Positions 3,205-20,966 of a DNA stretch of 22,387 nucleotides are shown here, one piece after another. The number at the start of each line of letters is the position of its first letter. Position 1 is the stretch's first letter. Origin of the DNA: a virus (taxonomy: Duplodnaviria > Heunggongvirae > Uroviricota > Caudoviricetes); IMG/VR virus record IMGVR_UViG_2698536657_000021, positions 1 through 22,387 of that record. One strand, 5' to 3'. Made by a program: the position numbers and the translations under genes. The notes beneath the pieces were generated by a model. It did no database searches, was not told the DNA's origin, and saw only the letters and a program-made list of their open reading frames with translations.

Positions 3205-3236
3205 ATTCATATAAAAGCCCCTCCGGAGAGGGGCTA
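3205..3236 (-). terminator. GC-rich hairpin terminator, possibly bidirectional
   Basis: 8-bp perfect stem AGCCCCTC (3216-3223) / GAGGGGCT (3228-3235), loop CGGA. The minus strand has TTTTAT after the stem; the plus strand has only AAAG, so termination of the 2846..3181 gene would lack a U-run. Confidence 0.45.
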
Positions 3237-3482
3237 AAGCCGCGTATCTGTATCATCATGCGCATGATGCCGGGTGCCTCCCGGTGAGTTCAGCCCGGTG
3301 CCACCAAACCAGCGCGTTTACTTTCCTGGGTATCAAAGATAACACCTAATGCACCAGTCGCCCCTCCGCTCAGGGGGATTCACCATGCCTGTTTCTTTTA
3401 ACAAACTCCCCGCAAAACAGACAACTGTCAACCGTCTGAATTGTGAGACATTTAAAATTTTCGGGGCATGACTGATACCCGG

Positions 3483-4840: not shown

Positions 4841-4917
4841 TGGCGCGTTGTACTGGATTCGAACCAGTGACCGATTGCTTAGAAGGCAATTGCTCTGTCC
4901 GGCTGAGCTAACAACGC
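4841..4917 (-). tRNA. argO: tRNA-Arg (anticodon UCU)
   Basis: Manual cloverleaf fold of the reverse complement: perfect 7-bp acceptor stem GCGTTGT/ACAACGC, D-stem GCTC/GAGC, anticodon loop CTTCTAA, T-arm ACTGG-TTCGAAT-CCAGT, discriminator G, 3' CCA. Confidence 0.85.
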
Positions 4918-4930
4918 TGAATACCGATAA

Positions 4931-5007
4931 TGGACCGCCATCGAGGACTCGAACCCCGCGCAGCCAGCTTCGAAGGCTGACGCTCTGTCCCGATGAGCTA
5001 ATGGCGG
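4931..5007 (-). tRNA. argN: tRNA-Arg (anticodon UCG)
   Basis: Manual fold: acceptor CCGCCAT/ATGGCGG, D-stem GCTC/GAGC, anticodon loop CTTCGAA, T-loop TTCGAGT, 3' CCA. Confidence 0.8.
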
Positions 5008-5016
5008 TATGTGATA

Positions 5017-5092
5017 TGGTGGCCCTTGCTGGATTTGAACCAGCGACCTGGCGATTATGAGTCGCTCGCTCTCACCACTGAGCTAAAGGGCC
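5017..5092 (-). tRNA. ileZ: tRNA with CAU anticodon, ileX/ileZ-like (lysidine tRNA-Ile2 type), 76 nt
   Basis: Reverse complement GGCCCTTTAGCTCAGTGGTGAGAGCGAGCGACTCATAATCGCCAGGTCGCTGGTTCAAATCCAGCAAGGGCCACCA closely resembles E. coli ileX; anticodon loop CTCATAA. The Ile versus Met call is by that similarity only. Confidence 0.8.
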
Positions 5093-13308: not shown

Positions 13309-14055
13309 TTACTTCACAACCCTCATATTGCTGACATTTGGACGCCAGCTATCCCAGTTAAACGTCACCCATCTACCACCGTTCATGGTCATGCGGTCCA
13401 TAATCCTCTCACCAAGAAGCGTACTCATTGCGGCATGATTCAGGTTTGTTAACATCCCGACACTGCACAGTGATGCTGTCCGGCGATCAATTATCTGGTG
13501 CAATACCACCTGCTCGTTTTTCGTCTCCCGCTGAACGCCTATTTCATCCAGGACCAGCAAATCAACCCCGCAAAGCTCCTGTAAAAATTTTTCCCCGGAT
13601 TTGCCGTTGTCGTAGCTGTCATGCAACACGCTCATGACGTCAGACACGGTGACGATAATCACGCTGCGCCCCTTCACCATCAGCCGGTTGCCCATCGCCG
13701 CTGCAAGGTGATTTTTCCCGGTGCCGGTTTTACCGCTGAACACAAAATTCGTGCACCCGGTCATCAGTTCGTCAGCTATGGATTTGGCCTGGCTCAGCGC
13801 GTATTTTTGCCCGTCGTTCTGCACCTGATAATTTGCAAACGAGCATTTGCTGTGCAGAGGCTGGATGCCCGAACGATTCAGGATTTTTTCCACCCGCAAC
13901 TGGCGATTCTGGCGGTTAATCTCCTCGCTGCGTTTTCGTCCTTCAGCAAGTTGCCATTCCCGCCACTCCTCCACCGTCCGGTACGGTGGAACCGCCCCCT
14001 GTGGTGCAAGTCTGCGAATACGTTCAAGAACCCCAACTGCCGCAATTTTTTTCAT
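13309..14055 (-). CDS. DnaC-like helicase loader (IstB-like AAA+ ATPase), replication protein P analog
   Basis: Track ORF, 248 aa. Walker A GKTGTGKNHLAAAMG, Walker B LLVLDEIG. SD AGGGGGTGA upstream. Immediately downstream of the O-like initiator. Confidence 0.85.
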   Translation of the reverse strand: MKKIAAVGVLERIRRLAPQGAVPPYRTVEEWREWQLAEGRKRSEEINRQNRQLRVEKILNRSGIQPLHSKCSFANYQVQNDGQKYALSQAKSIADELMTGCTNFVFSGKTGTGKNHLAAAMGNRLMVKGRSVIIVTVSDVMSVLHDSYDNGKSGEKFLQELCGVDLLVLDEIGVQRETKNEQVVLHQIIDRRTASLCSVGMLTNLNHAAMSTLLGERIMDRMTMNGGRWVTFNWDSWRPNVSNMRVVK

Positions 14056-14061
14056 GACACG

Positions 14062-15024
14062 TCACCCCCTGAATCCCGGCGGTATTTCAGTGTCCGGTTC
14101 AGAAATGTGATTCACGCAACGCTGCGCAGGCGAACGCCCCAGGCGGATAACCAGTTCATCCCATTTTTCCCGGAGTTTTGCCGGACTCATGATGTTTTTT
14201 ACCCAGAACGAATCCCGCTGGAGACGCCCAAACATTTCGCAAATTTGTCTGTGAGTTCTGCCATCCAGCATCCGCATTGTGCGAACGTCATTGGCCCATG
14301 CTGTCCAGTTGGGTTCTTTCGGTCTAGTGATCTCGCCATCATCGCTGGCCGCCTGCTCGTAAAGACTCACGATTCGTCCCCAGATCCACTGTGCGCACAC
14401 CAAATCTTCCTGACTTCCCCACTGGCGTTTTTTCGCACTGAACACAACCGCGTCAGGGTGTCGGGTTAAAAAATCCTGTTCAGCCGTCTGCGGGTCCGGT
14501 TGCGAAGCGTCCGGACAAGAAGATCTTTTATCTGACGGATCAGGTTTTAATACTGACGGATCGGGGTCAATCATCGCCCCCCTAATCGGCAGTTTTTTAT
14601 CAACAGTTGATCCATCAAAATTTGACGGGTCAACCGTTGAGGGGTCAATATTTGACGGGTCAACTGTTAACGGGTCATTTTTTGCCGGGCTAATTTTTCT
14701 TTTCGGTTTATATGACTCACGCGCCGCCGCCGCAGCTGCTTCGAGTTTTTCCACATTAAGCCGATAGATATTGCTTACATTACGCCCACCGACCTTACGC
14801 TCTTCCTTCGTCAGCCAGCCCTCTTTCGCCAGTTCTGCAATAGCCGATTTCACTGTGGATTCACTTCTTGCACCGATCTGACGCCGGATAGTTTCAATGG
14901 CAGGCCATGACACGCCCTCGTCATTGCTGTAGTCTGCAAGACGGGCCATAACCGCCACCCTGGATAAGATCATGCCGGTGAAGGCGCACCCTTCCCAGAC
15001 AAGACCATGAAGCTTGCTGCTCAT
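14062..15024 (-). CDS. replication initiator O-like protein (N-terminal wH DNA-binding domain, iteron-encoded DPS repeat linker)
   Basis: ATG at 15024 with SD GGGGG (the track start 15039 is GTG with no SD). The gene contains the iteron array; the protein segment LTVDPSNIDPSTVDPSNFDGSTVD is encoded by those iterons. Confidence 0.75.
   Translation of the reverse strand: MSSKLHGLVWEGCAFTGMILSRVAVMARLADYSNDEGVSWPAIETIRRQIGARSESTVKSAIAELAKEGWLTKEERKVGGRNVSNIYRLNVEKLEAAAAAARESYKPKRKISPAKNDPLTVDPSNIDPSTVDPSNFDGSTVDKKLPIRGAMIDPDPSVLKPDPSDKRSSCPDASQPDPQTAEQDFLTRHPDAVVFSAKKRQWGSQEDLVCAQWIWGRIVSLYEQAASDDGEITRPKEPNWTAWANDVRTMRMLDGRTHRQICEMFGRLQRDSFWVKNIMSPAKLREKWDELVIRLGRSPAQRCVNHISEPDTEIPPGFRG
14607..14696. 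repeat. replication origin iterons inside the O-like gene (six 15-bp units of imperfect palindrome TTGAC-N-GTCAA) followed by an AT-rich tract
   Basis: Units at 14607, 14622, 14637, 14652, 14667, 14682 (TTGATCCATCAAAAT, TTGACGGGTCAACCG, TTGAGGGGTCAATAT, TTGACGGGTCAACTG, TTAACGGGTCATTTT, TTGCCGGGCTAATTT), then TTTTCTTTTCGGTTTATATGA. Extra TGACGGATC copies at 14533 and 14564. Confidence 0.6.
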
Positions 15025-15046
15025 AAAACCCCCGAACACCGTGCTT

Positions 15047-15472
15047 TTAGTGCATCACCACAGCATTCCCTGCCGGGCCGCCGCGATTCATCTGGTCATA
15101 CAAAACAACCGCTGACGCAACAAAATCATCGACATCCTTCACCAGCCGATCCCTCCGTTCGACGATCTCACGGTAATATTCAGAACTGTGGCTGCGCATA
15201 CGGGCCACCAGCAAAGGCGGCATCGCCTTTTCGATCGCTGGTAACAACGCCTGAATTTTTTCAACTGCATCAGGGGTGTCTTTCTCTACCCAGCGGAAAA
15301 TTTTCTGGGTATTACGGGCCAGGGCTTCCGGATGGCTGTCGTCGTACAGTTCCGGGAACGTCATCCCCAGTTCGAAATAAGCCCGGGCTATTTCAGCTGC
15401 AGGTACTTTCTCACCGTCCGGATACGCCCAGGCATTCATCGCCATGCGGATGTGTTCATGCTTGATTTTCAT
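15047..15472 (-). CDS. YdaT-like protein (proposed CII-analog regulator / toxin family of Rac-type prophages)
   Basis: Track ORF, 141 aa. ATG overlaps the cro stop as ATGA. N-terminus MKIKHEHI matches the start of E. coli YdaT as I recall it. Sits between cro-like and O-like genes. Confidence 0.65.
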   Translation of the reverse strand: MKIKHEHIRMAMNAWAYPDGEKVPAAEIARAYFELGMTFPELYDDSHPEALARNTQKIFRWVEKDTPDAVEKIQALLPAIEKAMPPLLVARMRSHSSEYYREIVERRDRLVKDVDDFVASAVVLYDQMNRGGPAGNAVVMH

Positions 15473-15684
15473 GAATCATTCCTCATTTCGTGCGAGGTGT
15501 TATTCTTCTTTTTGTACAGCTCTGGGTTGTATTTCAATTCACCACCAGTAATTTCATCCAACTCAATTGCTCGAAGTTTTGGAATAACAGATTTCCACCG
15601 AACAACAGCCACGTGTGAAATTCCCAGAGCCTCAGCTACTAGCCGCTTTTTTTTGAAATAGCGTAGGACATCATCTTTAAACAT
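15469..15684 (-). CDS. Cro/YdaS-like HTH regulator, 71 aa
   Basis: ATG at 15684 with strong SD AGGGGGGA (the track start 15720 is TTG). HTH RLVAEALGISHVAVVRWKS. Divergent from the repressor gene. Confidence 0.7.
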   Translation of the reverse strand: MFKDDVLRYFKKKRLVAEALGISHVAVVRWKSVIPKLRAIELDEITGGELKYNPELYKKKNNTSHEMRNDS

Positions 15685-15711
15685 AAATCCCCCCTGTAAA
15701 ACCGAACCTAA

Positions 15712-15775
15712 AGGTAACAATAGTTACATGATAATGTCAACCATAGTGACATCCATTGGTAGTAACATTGGTTAC
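15712..15775. promoter_or_regulatory. immunity-region operator/promoter cluster between cro-like and the repressor gene
   Basis: Three palindromes: GTAAC-AATA-GTTAC (15714..15727), TGTCA-N7-TGACA (15735..15751), GTAAC-ATTG-GTTAC (15762..15775). Minus-strand promoter: -35 TTGACA (15740-15735) and -10 TACCTT/TTACCT (about 15717-15712), overlapped by the first operator. Confidence 0.5.
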
Positions 15776-16450
15776 ATGAACACTACCATTAGCGAACGCA
15801 TCCGAAAGCGTCGAAGAGACATAGGCCTAACCCAACAGCAGGTTGCAAAGGCTATCGGCGTCACCCGTGTATCCGTAACAAAGTGGGAAAATGGTTCAAC
15901 AAAACCGGACGGTGAGAATTTACATCTGCTGTCAAAACTGTTTTCCAAATCACCTGAATGGATTCTTTATGGGAAAGATATTCACGATAAAGTCGATGAT
16001 TTGCGATTGAATCAACTCCCCTACCTTAGTGACAACATCACCCGGTTGCCCGTTTTAACGTGGGAACAGGCTGGTTACTGGGATATGAGCTACCCAGTAA
16101 CCGAAATCCCTGGTATTAAGAATTGGGTTGATGTCATGACAAAAACATCTGAAAACTCTTTTTTATTGCGCGTTGAGGGGGATTCAATGACAAACTCTAA
16201 CGGTTTACCAACGATCCCCGACGGCTCCACGGTGTTGATCACTCCATGCTCTGGCAACATTGGGGAGATGGCGGGAAAGATTGTTCTAATCCAACTAGAA
16301 GGAATACCAACTGTAACACTGAAAAAAGTCGCAGTTGATGGCCCAAACATCTACCTACTGTCATTAAATCCGCTTTACAAGCCTATAGAACTCAATGGCC
16401 GCTACACCATTAAAGGTAAAGTCTCACAAATCCATCAATACTTAGATTGA
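15728..16450 (+). CDS. CI-type repressor (XRE-family HTH plus LexA-like S24 autopeptidase domain)
   Basis: Track ORF, 240 aa. HTH IGLTQQQVAKAIGVTRVSVTKWENG; S24 catalytic Ser in VEGDSMTN and Lys in VTLKKV. The ATG at 15776 (MNTTISERIRK...) is a plausible true start because operator copies fill 15714..15775. Confidence 0.8.
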   Translation: MIMSTIVTSIGSNIGYMNTTISERIRKRRRDIGLTQQQVAKAIGVTRVSVTKWENGSTKPDGENLHLLSKLFSKSPEWILYGKDIHDKVDDLRLNQLPYLSDNITRLPVLTWEQAGYWDMSYPVTEIPGIKNWVDVMTKTSENSFLLRVEGDSMTNSNGLPTIPDGSTVLITPCSGNIGEMAGKIVLIQLEGIPTVTLKKVAVDGPNIYLLSLNPLYKPIELNGRYTIKGKVSQIHQYLD

Positions 16451-16456
16451 CCAAAA

Positions 16457-16480
16457 GCCCGCATATATTGCGGTTTTTTC
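16457..16480 (+). terminator. intrinsic terminator after the repressor gene
   Basis: Stem CCGCA (16459-16463) / TGCGG (16469-16473) followed by TTTTTT (16474-16479). Confidence 0.5.
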
Positions 16481-16509
16481 ACACGCCTTCATGTAACTTA
16501 TGGAACCCA

Positions 16510-16538
16510 TTGACTCAACGGGTAACTTCTGTTACCTT
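16510..16538 (+). promoter_or_regulatory. putative early promoter of the ydfA-dicF-dicB operon with embedded repressor operator
   Basis: -35 TTGACT (16510-16515), 17-nt spacer, -10 TACCTT (16533-16538). The spacer/-10 contains GTAAC-TTCT-GTTAC (16522..16535), the same palindrome as in the cI-cro intergenic region. Confidence 0.45.
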
Positions 16539-16715
16539 CATTGCGTACCCACCCCGTCCCACAGAACGCCAGGCAATACCTAGAGTTACCCGGCAGTGGT
16601 CAGGGGTTAAGTAGCCAGCCCGAGGCGTATGAACATGACGGCGGGAACACTTTGTATAACAGCGCAGCAGGTTTTTAGTTCCGCTACCCCGGCGTTAAGG
16701 GGAAATGAGGTCAAC

Positions 16716-16868
16716 ATGGATACGCTCAATCTTGGCAACAACGAATCTCTGGTATGCGGCGTGTTTCCCAACCAGGACGGCACGTTTACCGCGATGACGT
16801 ATACCAGAAGCAAAACGTTTAAAACTGAAGCTGGCGCGCGTCGCTGGTTAGCAAGAAACTCTGACTAA
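16716..16868 (+). CDS. ydfA: YdfA-like small protein (DUF1391), 50 aa
   Basis: ATG at 16716 with SD GAGG and a 5-nt spacer. MDTLNLGNNESLVCGVFPNQDGTFTAMTYTRSKTFKTEAGARRWLARNSD resembles the Qin ydfA product. The upstream part of the track ORF lacks a usable SD. Confidence 0.65.
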   Translation: MDTLNLGNNESLVCGVFPNQDGTFTAMTYTRSKTFKTEAGARRWLARNSD

Positions 16869-16981
16869 TGAAGTCTGGTAGTTAAGGAATCCTCCACGGG
16901 GAGAACTGGTGCACACGCGCCGGACACAAGCAAGCATCCGGCATGCTCTTTAACAATCTGGATATCCATAACAGTAACAAT

Positions 16982-17473
16982 CTACAGATTGCCGTTCAGT
17001 TTTCTGGCCAACTCCTCAATAGATGGAGGCGATACATAATCCGGATTTTTATTCATAAGAAACTGATTTTCACAGTAGAGGCACCTGCTTTTATGAAAAA
17101 ACTCATATTCTCTAACCGGGAATGGTTGAAGTATCGATACTATCTTTTGTCCAAAACATTTTGGACAAAGATGCATGATTATGCTGCCGCCGTTCACGGT
17201 TACCTCCTTCGAGTACACAAAAGTTCCCGACTCAAGTTGGTTAAGGATATAACCTTCCGTCTGAGCCTCAAAGTTTTCAAATTCTGCAATTTTAGCTTTG
17301 AGAGAAGCATTTATTTCTTGATAAGTGCTCACCAGCTCAACGAGAGACACGCATTCGTGCTGAATAGATGCAAGCTTTGAGTTCAGTTCACCAATAGCCG
17401 CATTTACTTCAGCTTGAGTTTTTGCCTCGTTCATTAGTTTTGCAATCTGAGCGGTTTCACGAATAGCCGTCAT
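16982..17473 (-). CDS. hypothetical protein with N-terminal coiled coil and C-terminal CxxC...CxxC zinc-ribbon, AT-rich, reverse-oriented
   Basis: First ATG (17473) in track ORF 16982..17539 (track start is TTG). Low GC. MTAIRETAQIAKLMNEAKTQAEVNAAIGELNSKL... then CPKCFGQ and CLYCEN. Antisense to the expected ydfA-dicF-dicB transcript. No family recognised. Confidence 0.45.
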   Translation of the reverse strand: MTAIRETAQIAKLMNEAKTQAEVNAAIGELNSKLASIQHECVSLVELVSTYQEINASLKAKIAEFENFEAQTEGYILNQLESGTFVYSKEVTVNGGSIIMHLCPKCFGQKIVSILQPFPVREYEFFHKSRCLYCENQFLMNKNPDYVSPPSIEELARKLNGNL

Positions 17474-17486
17474 TGCTGCCGTTAAT

Positions 17487-17729
17487 TCAGCGATCACATT
17501 CAATACTCTTATTGTTGTTGGGGATATCCAGATTAACAAGATCCTTGTTGTTGGGGAATAACAGGTCCACCTCGCCTGACGTGGTTAAAAGCAGGCACAC
17601 AACACGAAAGCGCTCGGCGAAGTTAGTCTCTCTGTATATGTCGTCGTTAAATGTAATTCGATCGTGCGCTTCCGGTTGTGGCAATCCGCGAAATGGCGCG
17701 GCGGTAAGTATGGCTGGGGCTTCCTCCAT
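17487..17729 (-). CDS. hypothetical protein, 80 aa, possibly the first gene of a two-gene reverse cassette or the 5' part of a frameshifted gene
   Basis: Track ORF, ATG at 17729 with SD GGAG 5-8 nt upstream. Ends 13 nt before the ATG of the downstream ORF. The C-terminus is encoded over a 13-bp direct repeat TTGTTGTTGGGGA (17512-17524 and 17545-17557). Confidence 0.3.
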   Translation of the reverse strand: MEEAPAILTAAPFRGLPQPEAHDRITFNDDIYRETNFAERFRVVCLLLTTSGEVDLLFPNNKDLVNLDIPNNNKSIECDR

Positions 17730-17808
17730 TGCTCCAGAAAATGCACCGGGTTGTCAGGTTGACCATACACCTGAGTGACAACACCGCCACAACAACCTCT
17801 GTTATCAC

Positions 17809-17848
17809 TTTTCTGGTGATTCGGCGGAAATGGATATCCGCCATTTTT
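17809..17848 (+). ncRNA. dicF: DicF-like small RNA (cell-division inhibitor sRNA family), short variant
   Basis: Begins TTTCTGGTGA, as I recall the 5' seed of E. coli DicF; then hairpin GGCGGA-aatggata-TCCGCC (17823-17842) and ATTTTT. About 180 nt upstream of dicB, as in Qin. Exact ends uncertain. Confidence 0.55.
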
Positions 17849-18025
17849 AAAGTGTATTTTGTGATGCGGTGAATGCGGCTAAGCGCACGCGGAACAGTTA
17901 AAACAAGCGGTCTTTTACTGGCGTAACAGACATCAACTAACAATCCGGCGTTAATTGTTAACTGGTTAACGTCACCTGGAGGCACCAGGCACCACATCAC
18001 AAAATTCATTGTTGAGGACGCGATA

Positions 18026-18214
18026 ATGGAAACGTCACTACCAAACGTTAATACGTCTGAAAGGTGTTTTAATATTGGTATTCTGCTCAGTAACCGGGAG
18101 TTTACTGAGGACGCCATCAGGATGAGAAAATATGAGCCTTATCTTCTCAATGATAATTCCATACTCTCCAGAATTGCCCTTCTTGAACTTGGCATTTTCG
18201 GAGGGCAGCAGTGA
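18026..18214 (+). CDS. dicB: cell-division inhibitor DicB
   Basis: Track ORF, 62 aa. METSLPNVNTSERCFNIGILLSNREFTEDAIRMRK closely resembles E. coli DicB as I recall it. SD GAGGA upstream. Confidence 0.85.
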   Translation: METSLPNVNTSERCFNIGILLSNREFTEDAIRMRKYEPYLLNDNSILSRIALLELGIFGGQQ

Positions 18215-18494: not shown

Positions 18495-20966
18495 ATGAGT
18501 AAAATATTTATTTGCGCCGCCATTCCTGACGAACAGGCAATAAAAAACGAGGGCGCTGTTGCTGTGGCCACTGCCATTGAAGCCGGTGATGAACGTCGCG
18601 CCCGCGCAAAATTTCACTGGCAATTCCTTGAACATTATCCGGCTGCTCAGGACTGCGCTTATAAATTTCTTGTCTGTGAGGATAAACCCGGTACACACCG
18701 CCCAGCCCTCGACTCCTGGGATGCTGAATATATGCTGGAAAACCGCTGGGATGAGGAGTCTGCTTCCTTTGTCCCGGTTGAGACTGAATCAGATCCGATG
18801 AACGTCACTTTTGACAAGCTGTCCCCTGAAGTACAGAACGCTGTCATGGTTAAGTTCGACACATGTGAAAACATCACCGTTGATATGGTGATTAGCGCAC
18901 AGGAATTGTTGCAGGAAGACATGGCAACCTTCGACGGACATATCGTTGAAGCGTTGATGAAAATGCCAGAAGTTAACGCCATGTATCCGGAGATTAAACT
19001 GCATGCCATCGGGTGGGTTAAGCATAAATGTAAGCCTGGTGCCAAATGGCCAGAAATTCAGGCAGAGATGCGCATCTGGAAAAAACGTCGCGAAGGTGAA
19101 CGCAAGGAAACCGGAAAATATACGTCTGTTGTTGATCTCGCACGCACCAGAGTTAACCAGCACCTCACCGAAAACTCAGCAGCAAAAATCAACCCTGTCA
19201 CTACAGCCATTCGTCGCGAATACAGGCAGACATGGAAAACACTGGATAAAGAACTGGCCTGCGCCCTCTGGCCCGGGGATGTGGATGCAGGAAACATTGA
19301 CGGTACCATCCATCGCTGGGCTAAAAATGAGGTTATCGACAAGGATCGCGAAGACTGGAAGCGTATCTCAGCATCAATGCGCAAACAGCCTGATGCGCTT
19401 CGCTATGACCGTCAGACTATTTTCGGCCTTGTTCGTGAGCGCCCGATCGACATTTACAAAGATCCCGTTGCACTGAACAAATACATCAGCGAATACCTAA
19501 CGACAAAGGGCGTGTTTGAACATGAAGAAACAGACCAGAGCTCTGCTGATGCTATCCTGTCGTCAGCAGCACAAACTGATCCAGTGGAGACGGCGGAATC
19601 CAATTCTCAAAAAAATGAAATCCTGGTGGAAGCTGAACCATCTGTAGAGCGTGAAGGACCGTTTTATTTCGTCTTTACCGATAAGGACGGGGAAAAATAC
19701 GGCAGGGCAAACAAACTTTCTGGCCTGGACAAGGCGCTGGCTGCCGGTGGTACCGAAATCTCAAAAGAAGAATATTTTGCCCGAAAAAATGGCACATATA
19801 CGGGCTTACAGCAAAATACAGATACCGCAGAAGATTCAGAACAACCAGAGCCGGTAAAAGTTACCGCTGACGAAGTAAACAAAATTATGCAGGCAGCCAA
19901 TATCAGCCAGCCTGACACCGATAAATTGCTTGCTGCATCACGTGGTGAATTTGTTGAAGGGATTAGCGACCCGAATGATCCGAAATGGGTTAAGGGGATT
20001 GAAACCCGCGATTCTGTGAACCAGAACCAGCCCGAATCGGAACAAAACGACCAGAAAGCGGAACAAAACAGTCCAAATGCGTTACAAAACGAGCCAGAAA
20101 CGAAACTGCCTGAACCAGAAGTGCAACAAGAACCGGAAAAAGTCTGCACCGCCTGCGGTCAGACCGGCGACGGCAACTGTCCTGACTGTGGCGCGGTAAT
20201 GGGCGACGCAACATACCAGGAAACATTCGATGAAAAAAATCAGGCTGAAGTTCAGGAAGATGATTCGGAGGAAATGGAAGGCGCTGAACATCCGAACAAT
20301 GAGAATGCTGGTAACGATCAGCATCACACCAGCGATAGTGAAACTGGCGAGGCAGCAGAGCCCTTAATTGCGGAGAACGGTCATCACATTATCACATCCA
20401 CCAGCAGAGTGTGGATTCACCTGTCGGTCGACCTTGAAACGATGGGAACAAATCCTGATGCGCCAATCAACTCTATTGGCGGTAAATTTTTTGATCCGGC
20501 AACCGGAGAGATGGGGCCTGAATTCAGTAAAGCTATCGATCTGGAAACCTCCGGCGGAATCATCGACCGTAAAACAATAAAGTGGTGGGCGAAACGATCA
20601 CGCGAAGCACAATCCGCTATTTTTACCGATGAAATCTCGTTAGATGTTGCTCTCCGGCTATTCATAGAATTTATCGAAAAAAACTCCGGCGGGCGTTTTG
20701 TCCAGGTATGGGGAAATGGAGCCAACTTCGACAACGTAATTTTACGCCGTTCATATGAACGGCAGGGGATCCCCTGCCCGTGGCTTTACTACAACGATCG
20801 CGATGTACGCACAATCGTTGAACTGGGTAATGCCATTGGCTTTGATGTCAGAATGGCTATTCCATTCGAAGGCGTACCCCACAATGCGCTGGACGATGCC
20901 CGTCACCAGGCAAAACAAGTTTCAGCAATCTGGCAAAAACTGATCCCGAGTCAGGCTGATTTTTAA
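18495..20966 (+). CDS. YdfE-like large prophage protein with a C-terminal DnaQ-like (DEDDh) 3'-5' exonuclease motif set and a central zinc ribbon
   Basis: Track ORF, 823 aa, SD TGAGG upstream. C-terminal Exo I VDLETMG, Exo II WGNGANFD, Exo III HNALDDARHQ; central CTACGQTGDGNCPDCG; long acidic Q/E/N-rich linker. Follows dicB-ydfD as ydfE does in Qin. Confidence 0.75.
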   Translation: MSKIFICAAIPDEQAIKNEGAVAVATAIEAGDERRARAKFHWQFLEHYPAAQDCAYKFLVCEDKPGTHRPALDSWDAEYMLENRWDEESASFVPVETESDPMNVTFDKLSPEVQNAVMVKFDTCENITVDMVISAQELLQEDMATFDGHIVEALMKMPEVNAMYPEIKLHAIGWVKHKCKPGAKWPEIQAEMRIWKKRREGERKETGKYTSVVDLARTRVNQHLTENSAAKINPVTTAIRREYRQTWKTLDKELACALWPGDVDAGNIDGTIHRWAKNEVIDKDREDWKRISASMRKQPDALRYDRQTIFGLVRERPIDIYKDPVALNKYISEYLTTKGVFEHEETDQSSADAILSSAAQTDPVETAESNSQKNEILVEAEPSVEREGPFYFVFTDKDGEKYGRANKLSGLDKALAAGGTEISKEEYFARKNGTYTGLQQNTDTAEDSEQPEPVKVTADEVNKIMQAANISQPDTDKLLAASRGEFVEGISDPNDPKWVKGIETRDSVNQNQPESEQNDQKAEQNSPNALQNEPETKLPEPEVQQEPEKVCTACGQTGDGNCPDCGAVMGDATYQETFDEKNQAEVQEDDSEEMEGAEHPNNENAGNDQHHTSDSETGEAAEPLIAENGHHIITSTSRVWIHLSVDLETMGTNPDAPINSIGGKFFDPATGEMGPEFSKAIDLETSGGIIDRKTIKWWAKRSREAQSAIFTDEISLDVALRLFIEFIEKNSGGRFVQVWGNGANFDNVILRRSYERQGIPCPWLYYNDRDVRTIVELGNAIGFDVRMAIPFEGVPHNALDDARHQAKQVSAIWQKLIPSQADF

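What the first reader, a model, noticed from the sequence alone, without database searches (positions are those of the whole stretch)
15685..16538. One repressor operator motif (GTAAC-N4-GTTAC) reused at three sites with a repeated promoter architecture
The palindrome GTAAC-N4-GTTAC occurs at 15714..15727 and 15762..15775 (cI-cro intergenic region) and at 16522..16535 (upstream of ydfA). At both the cro-side promoter and the ydfA-side promoter the operator overlaps the spacer and a -10-like TACCTT placed 17-18 nt from a TTGACA/TTGACT -35. That argues the CI-type repressor directly shuts off both the rightward cro/replication operon and the dicF/dicB-int operon. A different palindrome, TGTCA-N7-TGACA (15735..15751), overlaps the cro -35 and may bind a second factor such as Cro. 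Both candidate repressor start codons are immediately preceded by GTTAC.
Basis: seen in the sequence. Interest (0 to 1): 0.45.

Follow-up and report, generated by a model that had tools for sequence, protein, structure and literature searches.

The report
P22-type prophage repressor operator set
The repeated GTAAC-N4-GTTAC motif is real and marks the repressor binding sites of an ordinary lambdoid (phage P22-style) prophage on/off switch; only the operator sequence itself appears to be undescribed.

Summary
The three exact GTAAC-N4-GTTAC sites exist at the stated coordinates (0.01 expected by chance). They lie in the immunity region of a lambdoid prophage: cro-like gene (15469-15684, -), CI repressor (HTH + LexA-type S24 peptidase, 15776-16450, +), then a PL-like promoter driving ydfA-dicB-exo-int.

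In 16 related loci from about ten enterobacterial genera, repressor 44-98% identical, the layout is fixed. One site sits in the spacer/-10 of the cro promoter. One sits exactly 48 bp away and abuts the repressor ATG. One sits in the spacer/-10 of the promoter downstream of the repressor gene. Half-sites are conserved; spacers and flanks drift. This copies the annotated P22 OR/OL layout, and resembles Qin dicA/dicC/dicBp and CP-933P PaaR2/YdaS, with a different half-site.

- The repressor starts at 15776. The 15728 ATG is not conserved, and the mRNA is probably (near-)leaderless.
- TGTCA-N7-TGACA is not a conserved palindrome. It covers the cro promoter -35 and the position of a weak central operator (OR2, 15737-15750).
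- A fourth, weaker site (OL2, 16493-16506) lies upstream of the PL -35.

Verdict: a new member of a known kind. Binding is inferred, not shown.

The parts
15714..15727 (.). OR1: strong operator GTAACAATAGTTAC (extended AGGTAAC-N4-GTTACAT, 15712-15729). It overlaps the spacer and the first 3 nt of the -10 of the cro promoter PR.
   Evidence: Exact match. Top PWM score, 26.8 bits. Present at -62..-49 from the cI ATG in all 16 related loci.
15737..15750 (.). OR2 candidate: weak central operator TCAACCATAGTGAC (3 mismatches), 23 bp from OR1 and 25 bp from OR3. It overlaps the PR -35.
   Evidence: At the fixed offset -39..-26, all 15 loci in register carry a 2-4-mismatch operator-like 14-mer, with a perfect GTTAC right half in L006, L018 and L021. 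The palindrome itself is not conserved. PWM score is low, so this part is inferred.
15762..15775 (.). OR3: strong operator GTAACATTGGTTAC that abuts the cI ATG. It contains the probable PRM -10, TAACAT (15763-15768).
   Evidence: Exact match. It abuts the ATG in 15 of 16 loci, with 1 nt between in L013, and its spacer ATTG is unusually conserved. P22 OR3 abuts the c2 ATG in the same way, and the P22 PRM start is annotated 4 nt before the ATG.
15735..15740 (-). PR -35 hexamer TTGACA (read on the - strand).
   Evidence: Sequence. TTGACA or TTGCTT/TTGCTA at the same place in relatives.
15711..15716 (-). PR -10 hexamer TACCTT (read on the - strand), preceded by TGn.
   Evidence: Sequence. TACCTT/TACCCT/TACATT conserved in relatives. 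Below the threshold of the promoter scan.
15469..15684 (-). cro-like gene (71 aa), first gene of the leftward cro-ydaT-O-P operon.
   Evidence: Pfam P22_Cro, E = 5.5e-16. A P22_Cro-family gene diverges from the repressor gene in every related locus. The HTH segment (I/L)(S/T/K)H(V/P/A)A(V/I)xxW is conserved.
15776..16450 (+). CI-type repressor (224 aa): N-terminal HTH with recognition helix TRVSVTKWE, and a C-terminal LexA-type S24 autopeptidase (Ala99-Gly100, Ser137, Lys183).
   Evidence: Pfam HTH_3 and Peptidase_S24. Alignment A3 gives the invariant residues and a start shared by relatives of 215-221 aa. It aligns from residue 1 with the P22 C2 N-terminal domain, and over most of its length (residues 10-217) with lambda CI.
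16459..16479 (+). Intrinsic terminator of cI (CCGCATATATTGCGG + T6). It separates cI from the PL-like promoter.
   Evidence: Terminator scan. An equivalent hairpin is present in relatives.
16493..16506 (.). OL2: weaker operator GTAACTTATGGAAC (perfect left half, 2 mismatches in the right half), 29 bp upstream of OL1, just upstream of the PL -35.
   Evidence: PWM score 13.7 bits, the fourth best in the window and well clear of the rest. An equivalent site lies 31-35 bp upstream of OL1 in relatives and 35 bp upstream in P22.
16510..16538 (+). PL-like promoter: -35 TTGACT (16510-16515), 17-nt spacer, -10 TACCTT (16533-16538) preceded by TGn.
   Evidence: Sequence. The same layout, TTGAC(A/T/C)-17-TAC(C/A/T)TT with the operator inside, is seen in L012-L021 and L006, in P22 and in Qin dicBp.
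16522..16535 (.). OL1: strong operator GTAACTTCTGTTAC in the spacer and -10 of PL.
   Evidence: Exact match. PWM 20.2 bits. In the 82-86% clade the half-sites are kept while the spacer changes from TTCT to TCTT.
16716..16868 (+). ydfA (DUF1391), first gene of the PL operon, followed by a DicF-like sequence, dicB (18026-18214), the exonuclease gene (18495-20966) and int (21257-).
   Evidence: Pfam DUF1391, DicB and Rv2179c-like exonuclease domain. Annotations of relatives.

Best explanation
This is the immunity (immC) switch of a lambdoid prophage, built on the phage P22 plan.

**Proposed mechanism.** Dimers of the CI-type repressor (15776-16450) recognise a two-fold symmetric operator. Its core is GTAAC-N4-G(T/G)TAC, the extended form is A(T/G)GTAAC-wwww-GTTAC(A/C)T, and the central 4 bp are A/T-rich.
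- At OR1 (15714-15727) the repressor blocks PR, and so the leftward cro-ydaT-replication operon.
- At OL1 (16522-16535), probably helped by the weaker OL2 (16493-16506), it blocks the PL-like promoter of the ydfA-dicF-like-dicB-exonuclease-int operon.
- In both promoters the outer half-site plus three flanking bases is itself the -10 (TGnTACCTT), so occupancy excludes RNA polymerase.
- OR3 (15762-15775) abuts the repressor ATG and contains the likely PRM -10 (TAACAT). The maintenance transcript is therefore leaderless or nearly so. OR3 would be the site of negative autoregulation and of shut-off by the Cro-like protein.
- A weak central site (OR2, 15737-15750) would be filled cooperatively.
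- RecA-stimulated self-cleavage at Ala99-Gly100 would lift repression of both operons at once.

**Shown here:** the sites, their significance, their conserved positions, and the repressor's domains.

**Inferred:** which protein binds, the transcription start sites, cooperativity and SOS induction.
For: - Three exact sites against 0.01 expected.
- In an unbiased enumeration of every 5-N(0-8)-5 inverted repeat over the OR and OL regions of 14 loci, GTAAC-N4-GTTAC ranks first. It has 44 hits in all 14 loci, against 1 hit in 74,626 nt of flanking DNA.
- The geometry is fixed in loci whose intergenic DNA is otherwise unalignable. OR1 lies at -62..-49 and OR3 at -14..-1 from the ATG. OL1 lies between a TTGACx -35 and a TACxTT -10.
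- Within E. coli clades 82-86% identical, the half-sites are kept while spacers and flanks change.
- The repressor has HTH_3 and Peptidase_S24 domains with the Ala-Gly, Ser and Lys residues.
- Its recognition helix, (S/T)RVSVTKWE, is invariant in the relatives that carry these operators.
- P22 C2 (SNVAISQWE) and Qin DicA (SHVSVSQWE) have other helices, and their immunity regions contain no such sites.
- An unseeded HMMER search shows that most repressors about 40% identical carry other helices.
- The annotated P22 record has the same plan. OR centres lie at -57.5/-34.5/-8.5 there and at -55.5/-32.5/-7.5 here. In P22, OR3 abuts the ATG, the PRM start is 4 nt before the ATG, OL1 lies inside the PL spacer/-10, and OL2 is 35 bp upstream.
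- Experiments on related prophages show the same logic: DicA represses dicCp and dicBp (PMC10448788, PMC3441716). PaaR2 and YdaS footprint on shared repeats at PR, PRM and PL, with a leaderless repressor gene (PMC8630535).
- A terminator after cI makes PL a separate transcription unit.
Against: - No binding, footprint or transcript-start data exist for this operator. An exact-string literature search found nothing.
- The -10 hexamers are weak (3 of 6), and the simple promoter scan calls no promoter in 15400-16900.
- OR2 has 3 mismatches and a poor PWM score. Part of its conservation is explained by the overlapping PR -35.
- The PWM core was built from sites preselected for at most 1 mismatch.
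- The relatives came largely from a word-seeded search, which favours proteins that share the helix.
- In the window, OL2 lies 29 bp from OL1 rather than the 31-35 bp seen in relatives, so cooperativity there is uncertain.
- In one relative (L010) the downstream promoter region is replaced and has no OL.
Confidence: 0.85

Rival explanations
1. The GTAAC-N4-GTTAC sites are primarily operators of the Cro-like protein (15469-15684), not of CI. CI would recognise something else.
For: - A P22_Cro-family gene accompanies the motif in every locus, and its HTH segment is also conserved.
- In CP-933P, the YdaS and PaaR2 footprints overlap (PMC8630535).
Against: - In lambda, P22 and CP-933P both proteins use the same operators, so this reading overlaps the main explanation rather than excluding it.
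- No other repeated symmetric motif is enriched in these regions. All the top-ranked motifs are shifted versions of the same site.
- The CI recognition helix is more strictly invariant than that of Cro.
Confidence: 0.07
2. One reading: TGTCA-N7-TGACA (15735-15751) is a separate operator for a second factor such as Cro.
For: It is a perfect 5+5 palindrome overlapping the PR -35, and it is conserved in the window, L001 and L002.
Against: - The right arm is GCAACA in all six sampled members of the roughly 82% E. coli clade (694 genomes). It is GTAACA in L010 and GGTACG in L012. The distant relatives have no palindrome there at all.
- The left arm is simply the PR -35.
- The position equals that of OR2 in P22.
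Confidence: 0.06
3. The repeats are not protein-binding sites. They would reflect reuse or duplication of promoter -10 segments, or chance.
For: Every strong site overlaps a -10-like element, so some of the conservation could come from the promoter.
Against: - Both half-sites are conserved, including the half that lies in the promoter spacer, where sequence is normally free.
- The two-fold symmetry is kept.
- OL2-type sites lie outside the promoter core.
- 44 hits against 1 in background; 0.01 expected in the window.
Confidence: 0.02

Closest known systems
Phage P22 immC: C2 repressor, Cro, OR1-3/PR/PRM and OL1-3/PL
   Same: - The repressor is 38% identical overall and 42% in the N-terminal domain, with the same HTH + S24 architecture.
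- The operator geometry is the same: 5-bp half-sites around 4 central bases.
- OR3 abuts the repressor ATG. OR centres are 23 and 25-26 bp apart.
- OL1 lies inside the PL spacer/-10, and OL2 lies about 35 bp upstream on the other side of the -35.
- The Cro belongs to the P22_Cro family.
   Different: - The half-site is GTAAC rather than TTAAG, and the recognition helix is TRVSVTKWE rather than SNVAISQWE. No cross-matching sites are found.
- The central operator is much weaker here.
- The PL operon begins with ydfA and has no N-like gene 24 and no boxA/nutL.
- The CII equivalent is YdaT rather than C1.
Qin cryptic prophage dicA / dicC / dicBp (E. coli K-12)
   Same: - The gene order is the same: cro-like dicC, repressor, promoter, ydfA...dicF-dicB.
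- One repressor controls both the divergent promoter and the ydfA-dicB promoter (PMC10448788, PMC3441716).
- An operator sits in the dicBp spacer/-10, and another lies directly before the dicA ATG.
- The N-terminal domain is 49% identical.
   Different: - DicA has no S24 domain and no Ala-Gly bond. It is relieved by an antirepressor, not by self-cleavage (PMC10448788).
- Its operator is TTGTTAG-N6-CTAACAA (PMC3441716).
- DNA homology with the window begins only about 40 nt before ydfA.
CP-933P prophage PaaR2 / YdaS / YdaT switch (E. coli O157:H7)
   Same: - It has a Cro-like YdaS and the CII-equivalent YdaT.
- Shared repeats at PR, PRM and PL are footprinted by both regulators.
- PL has the same -35/-10 as PR.
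- The repressor gene is leaderless (PMC8630535).
- A YdaT site lies at the cro/ydaT junction (PMC9986795). The window has TTGATTTTCATGAATCAT at 15462-15479.
   Different: - The repressor there is PaaR2, part of a toxin-antitoxin operon. No S24 domain or LexA-like feature is mentioned for it in that paper.
- The repeats have the consensus GTTTAGTAA, with four inverted repeats.
Phage lambda CI / Cro with OR and OL
   Same: - The logic is the same: a divergent cI-cro pair, multiple operators at PR/PRM and at PL, an S24 self-cleaving repressor, and a leaderless cI mRNA.
- Lambda CI is the best full-length solved match (3bdn, E = 2e-15).
   Different: - Lambda operators are 17 bp with another sequence.
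- OR3 does not abut the ATG in the same way.
- The PR and PRM start sites would be about 72 bp apart here, against 82 bp in lambda (the lambda figure is from my own knowledge).

Membership tests
Lambdoid (P22-type) CI/C2 repressor-operator immunity switch | Repressor with an N-terminal HTH domain and a C-terminal LexA-type S24 self-cleaving domain (Ala-Gly bond, Ser/Lys dyad) | tested here: met
   Pfam HTH_3 (E = 1.6e-15) and Peptidase_S24 (E = 1.6e-18). Q98 and K183/K184 are invariant, and A99, G100 and S137 nearly invariant (at least 90%), across 21 relatives. It matches lambda CI and P22 C2 structures by sequence.
Lambdoid (P22-type) CI/C2 repressor-operator immunity switch | Divergently transcribed cro-type gene separated from the repressor gene by a short (~90 bp) control region | tested here: met
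   P22_Cro-family gene at 15469-15684 (-). The cro ATG to cI ATG interval is 91 bp here and 90-97 bp in 14 loci.
Lambdoid (P22-type) CI/C2 repressor-operator immunity switch | Three two-fold symmetric operators in the right control region, overlapping PR and PRM | tested here: inconclusive
   There are two strong sites (OR1, OR3) exactly 48 bp apart in all loci. The central site is only operator-like (2-4 mismatches) at a conserved offset, and it scores poorly with the PWM.
Lambdoid (P22-type) CI/C2 repressor-operator immunity switch | A second operator cluster of the same sequence at the early promoter on the far side of the repressor gene (OL/PL) | tested here: met
   OL1 (16522-16535) lies inside the TTGACT-17-TACCTT promoter, and OL2 is at 16493-16506. 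The same arrangement is seen in 14 of 15 related loci.
Lambdoid (P22-type) CI/C2 repressor-operator immunity switch | Repressor and Cro physically bind these operators and repress PR and PL | not testable with these tools
   This needs EMSA or footprinting and reporter assays. No publication containing these operator strings was found.
Lambdoid (P22-type) CI/C2 repressor-operator immunity switch | Induction by RecA-stimulated repressor cleavage | not testable with these tools
   Only the cleavage-site and catalytic residues could be checked, and they are present.
P22 immunity specificity (same immunity as P22) | Operators with TTAAG-N4-CTTAA half-sites and the C2 recognition helix SNVAISQWE | tested here: not met
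   The helix is TRVSVTKWE and the half-site is GTAAC. The P22 region has no GTAAC-N4-GTTAC site with 2 or fewer mismatches.
Qin DicA-type repressor | Short repressor without a peptidase domain, recognising TTGTTAG-N6-CTAACAA | tested here: not met
   An S24 domain is present. The operators differ (PMC3441716).

The most novel reading that the evidence does not exclude
Repressors with the RVSVTKWE helix and GTAAC-N4-G(T/G)TAC operators may form one immunity specificity class. It would be shared by prophages of at least ten enterobacterial genera: Escherichia, Salmonella, a Klebsiella-type prophage, Yersinia, Pantoea, Cronobacter, Morganella, Providencia, and the insect symbionts Hamiltonella and Arsenophonus. 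The rest of the repressor has diverged to about 45% identity. Lambdoid immunity usually diversifies quickly. A conserved specificity of this kind would predict cross-immunity, and cross-silencing of each other's early operons (including dicB/dicF-type host-active genes), between otherwise unrelated resident prophages.
Probability: 0.3. Interest if true: 0.45.

Novelty: new member of a known kind. Interest (0 to 1): 0.25.

Why it matters
- This immunity type is present in 702 of 5,426 complete E. coli genomes, including ST131, O55:H7 and O111:H8 lineages. It controls an operon that carries the cell-division inhibitor dicB.
- Knowing the operator and the true repressor start helps predict superinfection immunity and prophage cross-talk. 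It also helps design reporters or induction-proof mutants.
- It corrects a systematic annotation error. The 238/240-aa 'LexA family protein' models start upstream of the true Met, and their extra N-terminal residues include a translation of the OR3 operator.
- Conceptually it adds a third specificity (GTAAC) to the P22 (TTAAG) and Qin (GTTAG) series on an identical promoter-operator scaffold. That could be used to study how HTH recognition helices retarget.
- It does not change the understanding of how such switches work.

Tried and rejected
- **Genome-contig scan.** The search for related loci with the repressor returned only three unrelated HTH hits from Firmicutes and mollicute MAGs. Relatives were obtained instead through E. 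coli genomes and protein look-ups.
- **Isolated phages.** No record in the phage collection carries this immunity. The best match is 46% amino-acid identity, and the DNA hits cover only the flanks.
- **Promoter scan.** The simple scan gave no promoter call in 15400-16900, so the promoter assignment rests on conservation and on the P22 analogy.
- **Start at 15728.** Rejected because it is ATT or ATA in relatives. The PGAP start at 15734 is also rejected: that ATG is part of the PR -35 and is absent from distant relatives.
- **Separate palindrome for a second factor.** Rejected because it is not conserved.
- **DicF.** There is no Rfam hit, even at E <= 1, and no match to the K-12 DicF 5' part, typed in from memory, with 3 or fewer mismatches. 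Only a shorter DicF-like sequence was seen by eye.
- **PL leader.** There is no Rfam family. RNAalifold gives only a 3-bp invariant helix with no covariation. The hairpin that seemed to covary in L013, L018 and L021 does not hold in the window-type sequences.
- **Literature.** An exact-string search for six operator variants found no paper.
- **Helix invariance.** An unseeded search shows that the invariance is partly an ascertainment effect of word seeding. RVSVTKWE is one helix among many at about 40% identity.
Full report
**1. Observation**

The pattern GTAACNNNNGTTAC occurs exactly three times in the 22,387-base window, at 15714-15727, 15762-15775 and 16522-16535. Dinucleotide-preserving shuffles give 0.01 matches on average, and none of 100 shuffles reached three.

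- On the minus strand: TTGACA (15740->15735), 18 nt, then TACCTT (15716->15711).
- On the plus strand: TTGACT (16510-16515), 17 nt, then TACCTT (16533-16538).
- In both, the operator fills the spacer, its outer half-site supplies the TAC of the -10, and a TGn lies just upstream (an extended -10).

TACCTT matches the consensus at only 3 of 6 positions, so the simple sigma-70 scan reports no promoter in 15400-16900. The palindrome TGTCA-N7-TGACA is at 15735-15751.

**2. Gene context**

ORF listing and Pfam give, on the minus strand:
- a P22_Cro-family gene at 15469-15684;
- a YdaT-family (CII-equivalent) gene at 15047-15472;
- an O-like gene at 14062-15039;
- a DnaC/IstB-like gene at 13309-14055.

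On the plus strand they give:
- a repressor with HTH_3 and Peptidase_S24 domains (ORF 15728-16450);
- an intrinsic terminator at 16459-16479;
- ydfA/DUF1391 at 16716-16868;
- dicB at 18026-18214;
- an exonuclease gene at 18495-20966;
- an integrase gene from 21257.

This is the immunity region of a lambdoid prophage. The third site lies at the position of OL/PL, downstream of the repressor gene and pointing away from it.

**3. Distribution**

No complete E. coli genome is identical to the window. The best match is 98.2%.

The repressor-operator module is found in 702 of 5,426 complete E. coli genomes. Eight are about 98% identical. A further 694 are about 82% identical, including ST131, O55:H7 and O111:H8 strains.

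No isolated phage in the phage collection has this immunity. The best protein match is 46%, and P22 C2 is 38%.

**4. Comparative test of the operator idea**

*E. coli clades.* In the 82-86% clade the sequence around the sites has drifted, but the half-sites are kept:
- OR1 is identical.
- OR3 is identical or carries a single change (GTTAC to ATTAC).
- OL1 keeps both half-sites while its spacer changes from TTCT to TCTT.

*More distant relatives.* I retrieved repressor relatives at 44-95% identity and their loci. They come from Salmonella, a Klebsiella-type prophage found in E. coli, Yersinia, Pantoea, Cronobacter, Morganella, Providencia, Hamiltonella and Arsenophonus.

The intergenic DNA of these loci is not alignable to the window, yet the geometry is constant:
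- A GTAAC-N4-G(T/G)TAC site lies at -62..-49 from the repressor ATG.
- A second lies at -14..-1 and abuts the ATG. L013 has one extra base between them.
- Downstream of the repressor gene, a site lies between a TTGAC(A/T/C) -35 and a TAC(C/A/T)TT -10 with a 17-nt spacer.

*Unbiased enumeration.* I enumerated every 5-mer inverted repeat with gaps of 0 to 8 across these regulatory regions. GTAAC-N4-GTTAC with at most 1 mismatch ranks first. It has 44 occurrences in 3,540 nt, in all 14 loci, against one occurrence in 74,626 nt of flanking DNA. The other high-ranking patterns are shifted or extended versions of the same site.

*Extended operator.* The flanks and spacer were not used to select the sites. 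They show an A two bases outside the core and an A/T-rich central tetranucleotide. The extended operator is therefore A(T/G)GTAAC-wwww-GTTAC(A/C)T.

**5. Link to the repressor**

All relatives that carry these operators share the recognition-helix segment G(V/I)(S/T)RVSVTKWE. This set came from a word-seeded search, which favours shared words. I therefore ran the unseeded HMMER search of 1.84 billion representatives as a check.

At about 40% identity most CI-like repressors have other helices, such as ASAVTQWE, GVAVGGWE or HVTISQWE. RVSVTKWE and RVSITKWE recur in a minority.

P22 C2 (SNVAISQWE) and Qin DicA (SHVSVSQWE) are homologous in the N-terminal domain, at 42% and 49% identity. Their immunity regions hold no GTAAC-N4-GTTAC site with 2 or fewer mismatches in the control regions.

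So helix and operator vary together across the P22, Qin and present types. This supports the repressor as the binding protein. It is correlation, not proof.

The Cro-like proteins also keep a conserved HTH segment, (I/L)(S/T/K)H(V/P/A)A(V/I)xxW. This is compatible with Cro using the same operators, as in lambda, P22 and CP-933P.

**6. Repressor start and PRM**

The 15728 ATG is ATT or ATA in relatives.

The PGAP start, corresponding to 15734, is an ATG that is part of the PR -35 (ATGTCAA is the complement of TTGACAT). It is absent from distant relatives.

Most relatives below about 55% identity are 214-227 aa long (215-221 among those aligned) and begin at the Met equivalent to 15776. Longer gene models such as P0008, P0010 and P0079 appear to be the same kind of over-extension. 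P22 C2 aligns from residue 1: MNTQLMGERIRARR against MNTT-ISERIRKRR. The 238/240-aa models therefore over-extend the N-terminus. Their extra residues ...SNIGY are a translation of OR3.

There is no Shine-Dalgarno sequence before 15776. OR3 abuts the ATG in essentially every locus, and its spacer ATTG is unusually conserved. Together with the left half-site, that spacer forms TAACAT (15763-15768), which is a plausible -10 placed 7 nt before the ATG.

In the annotated P22 genome OR3 likewise abuts the c2 ATG. The equivalent TAAGAT lies at the same place, and the 5' end of the PRM transcript is annotated 4 nt before the ATG. I infer a leaderless or nearly leaderless maintenance transcript starting at 15774-15776. 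CP-933P paaR2 is also leaderless (PMC8630535).

**7. The 'second palindrome' and the extra sites**

TGTCA-N7-TGACA is intact only in the window, L001 and L002. Elsewhere its right arm differs:
- GCAACA in all six sampled members of the ~82% clade (L008, L009, L024-L027);
- GTAACA in L010;
- GGTACG in L012;
- no palindrome at all in the distant relatives.

Its left arm is the PR -35.

At the fixed offset -39..-26 (15737-15750 in the window, TCAAC-CATA-GTGAC), every locus in register has an operator-like 14-mer with 2-4 mismatches. Three lineages have a perfect GTTAC right half there. The site lies 23 bp from OR1 and 25 bp from OR3. P22 OR2 sits at the matching place, with centres at -57.5/-34.5/-8.5 in P22 against -55.5/-32.5/-7.5 here.

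I read this as a weak OR2 that would depend on cooperativity. The reading is the least secure part of the model, because the PWM score is low and the overlapping -35 explains part of the conservation.

At PL, a fourth site, GTAACTTATGGAAC (16493-16506), scores 13.7 bits. It is clearly separated from everything else in the window, where the next score is 6.4. Equivalent sites lie 31-35 bp upstream of OL1 in relatives and 35 bp upstream in P22. In the window the distance is 29 bp, because of a small deletion.

**8. Comparison with known systems**

The plan matches P22 immC almost element for element, but with another half-site.

Qin has the same gene order and the same downstream ydfA-dicB operon. 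There, DicA represses both dicCp and dicBp, and three operators are described at each (PMC10448788, PMC3441716). In the K-12 sequence an operator sits in the dicBp spacer/-10, and another lies directly before the dicA ATG. However, DicA lacks the peptidase domain, its operator is TTGTTAG-N6-CTAACAA, and DNA homology with the window begins only about 40 nt before ydfA.

In CP-933P, footprinting showed PaaR2 and YdaS on shared repeats at PR and PRM. That work also found a PL with the same -35/-10 as PR and similar operators (PMC8630535).

The new element is the specificity, GTAAC-N4-GTTAC paired with the helix TRVSVTKWE. I found no description of it in the searchable literature.

**9. Mechanism and confidence**

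The most likely mechanism (0.85) has these steps:
- Repressor dimers at OR1, possibly with OR2, occlude PR.
- Repressor dimers at OL1, possibly with OL2, occlude PL.
- OR3 overlaps the PRM -10 and start site, and serves negative autoregulation and shut-off by Cro.
- Self-cleavage at Ala99-Gly100, with Ser137 and Lys183 present, derepresses both operons.

Shown here: the sites, their statistics, their conserved geometry, the domains and the helix-operator co-variation. Inferred: binding, transcription start sites, cooperativity and inducibility.

**10. Verdict**

It is a new member (a new operator specificity) of a well-known kind. Interest is low to moderate.

Noticed in passing
window 15462-15479: TTGATTTTCATGAATCAT has one mismatch to the YdaT operator TTGATT-N6-AATCAA. 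It sits exactly at the cro stop / ydaT start junction, the position of the footprinted OM/PRE site in CP-933P (PMC9986795). It is probably the CII-equivalent establishment-promoter site of this switch. By itself the match is not significant in the window: 2 hits with 2 or fewer mismatches against 1.4 expected.
   Followed up: partly
window 16609-16642 (also L002, L008, L012, L013, L016, L018, L021): The long untranslated PL leader (about 16545-16715) contains a block, AAGTAGCCAGCCCGAGGCGTATGAACATGACGGC. It is conserved from E. coli to Pantoea, Cronobacter and Arsenophonus prophages, although the surrounding leader differs. There is no Rfam family and no supported consensus structure or covariation. 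In relatives that have an N gene, it lies upstream of boxA (GCTCTTTAAC). Function unknown.
   Followed up: partly
window 17810-17848 (+): A DicF-like sequence lies upstream of dicB. It has TTTCTGGTGA, which as I recall is the 5' end of K-12 DicF, followed by a GGCGGA...TCCGCC hairpin and a T-run (fold -15.2 kcal/mol, z = -2.1). It is shorter than K-12 DicF and is missed by Rfam even at E <= 1. A weak sub-threshold STnc100 hit overlaps 17841-18058.
   Followed up: partly
window 15728-15775, and RefSeq models WP_028985609.1, WP_000104592.1 and WP_000103687.1 in L001, L002 and L008: Public annotations of this repressor (238/240 aa 'LexA family protein') start 14-16 codons too early. The extra N-terminal residues include a translation of the OR3 operator (...SNIGY), and the chosen ATG is part of the PR -35.
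   Followed up: yes
window 16982-17539 (-): A 185-aa ORF on the opposite strand sits where ydfB/ydfC lie in ST131-type and Qin prophages, inside the PL operon. It has no Pfam or PADLOC hit and matches PHROG 1244, of unknown function. L002 carries an opposite-strand hypothetical gene (171 aa) at the corresponding position. It is a possible moron. The overlapping 156-aa ORF at 17647-18117 (-) has no hits and is probably spurious.
   Followed up: partly
window 4841-5092 (-) and 3205-3417 (-): A cluster of three tRNA genes: Arg-UCU, Arg-UCG and Met/Ile-CAT. A full-length STnc100 sRNA match scores 131 bits. I recall such features from the late-gene regulatory region of Stx-type lambdoid prophages.
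   Followed up: no
L010 (Salmonella contig), about 3217-3470: In this 70%-identical relative the OR region is intact, but the region downstream of the repressor gene has no OL/PL. It leads instead into an unrelated 204-aa gene, so the early-left promoter has apparently been replaced.
   Followed up: no
L013, L014 and L016 downstream of the repressor gene: The relatives from a metagenome contig, Hamiltonella and Arsenophonus carry boxA-like GCTCTTTAA(C/A)A in the PL leader. L013 and L016 also carry an N_peptide-family gene. The window's PL leader lacks both. The same immunity module is therefore joined to different early-left operons, either N-antitermination or ydfA-dicB.
   Followed up: no
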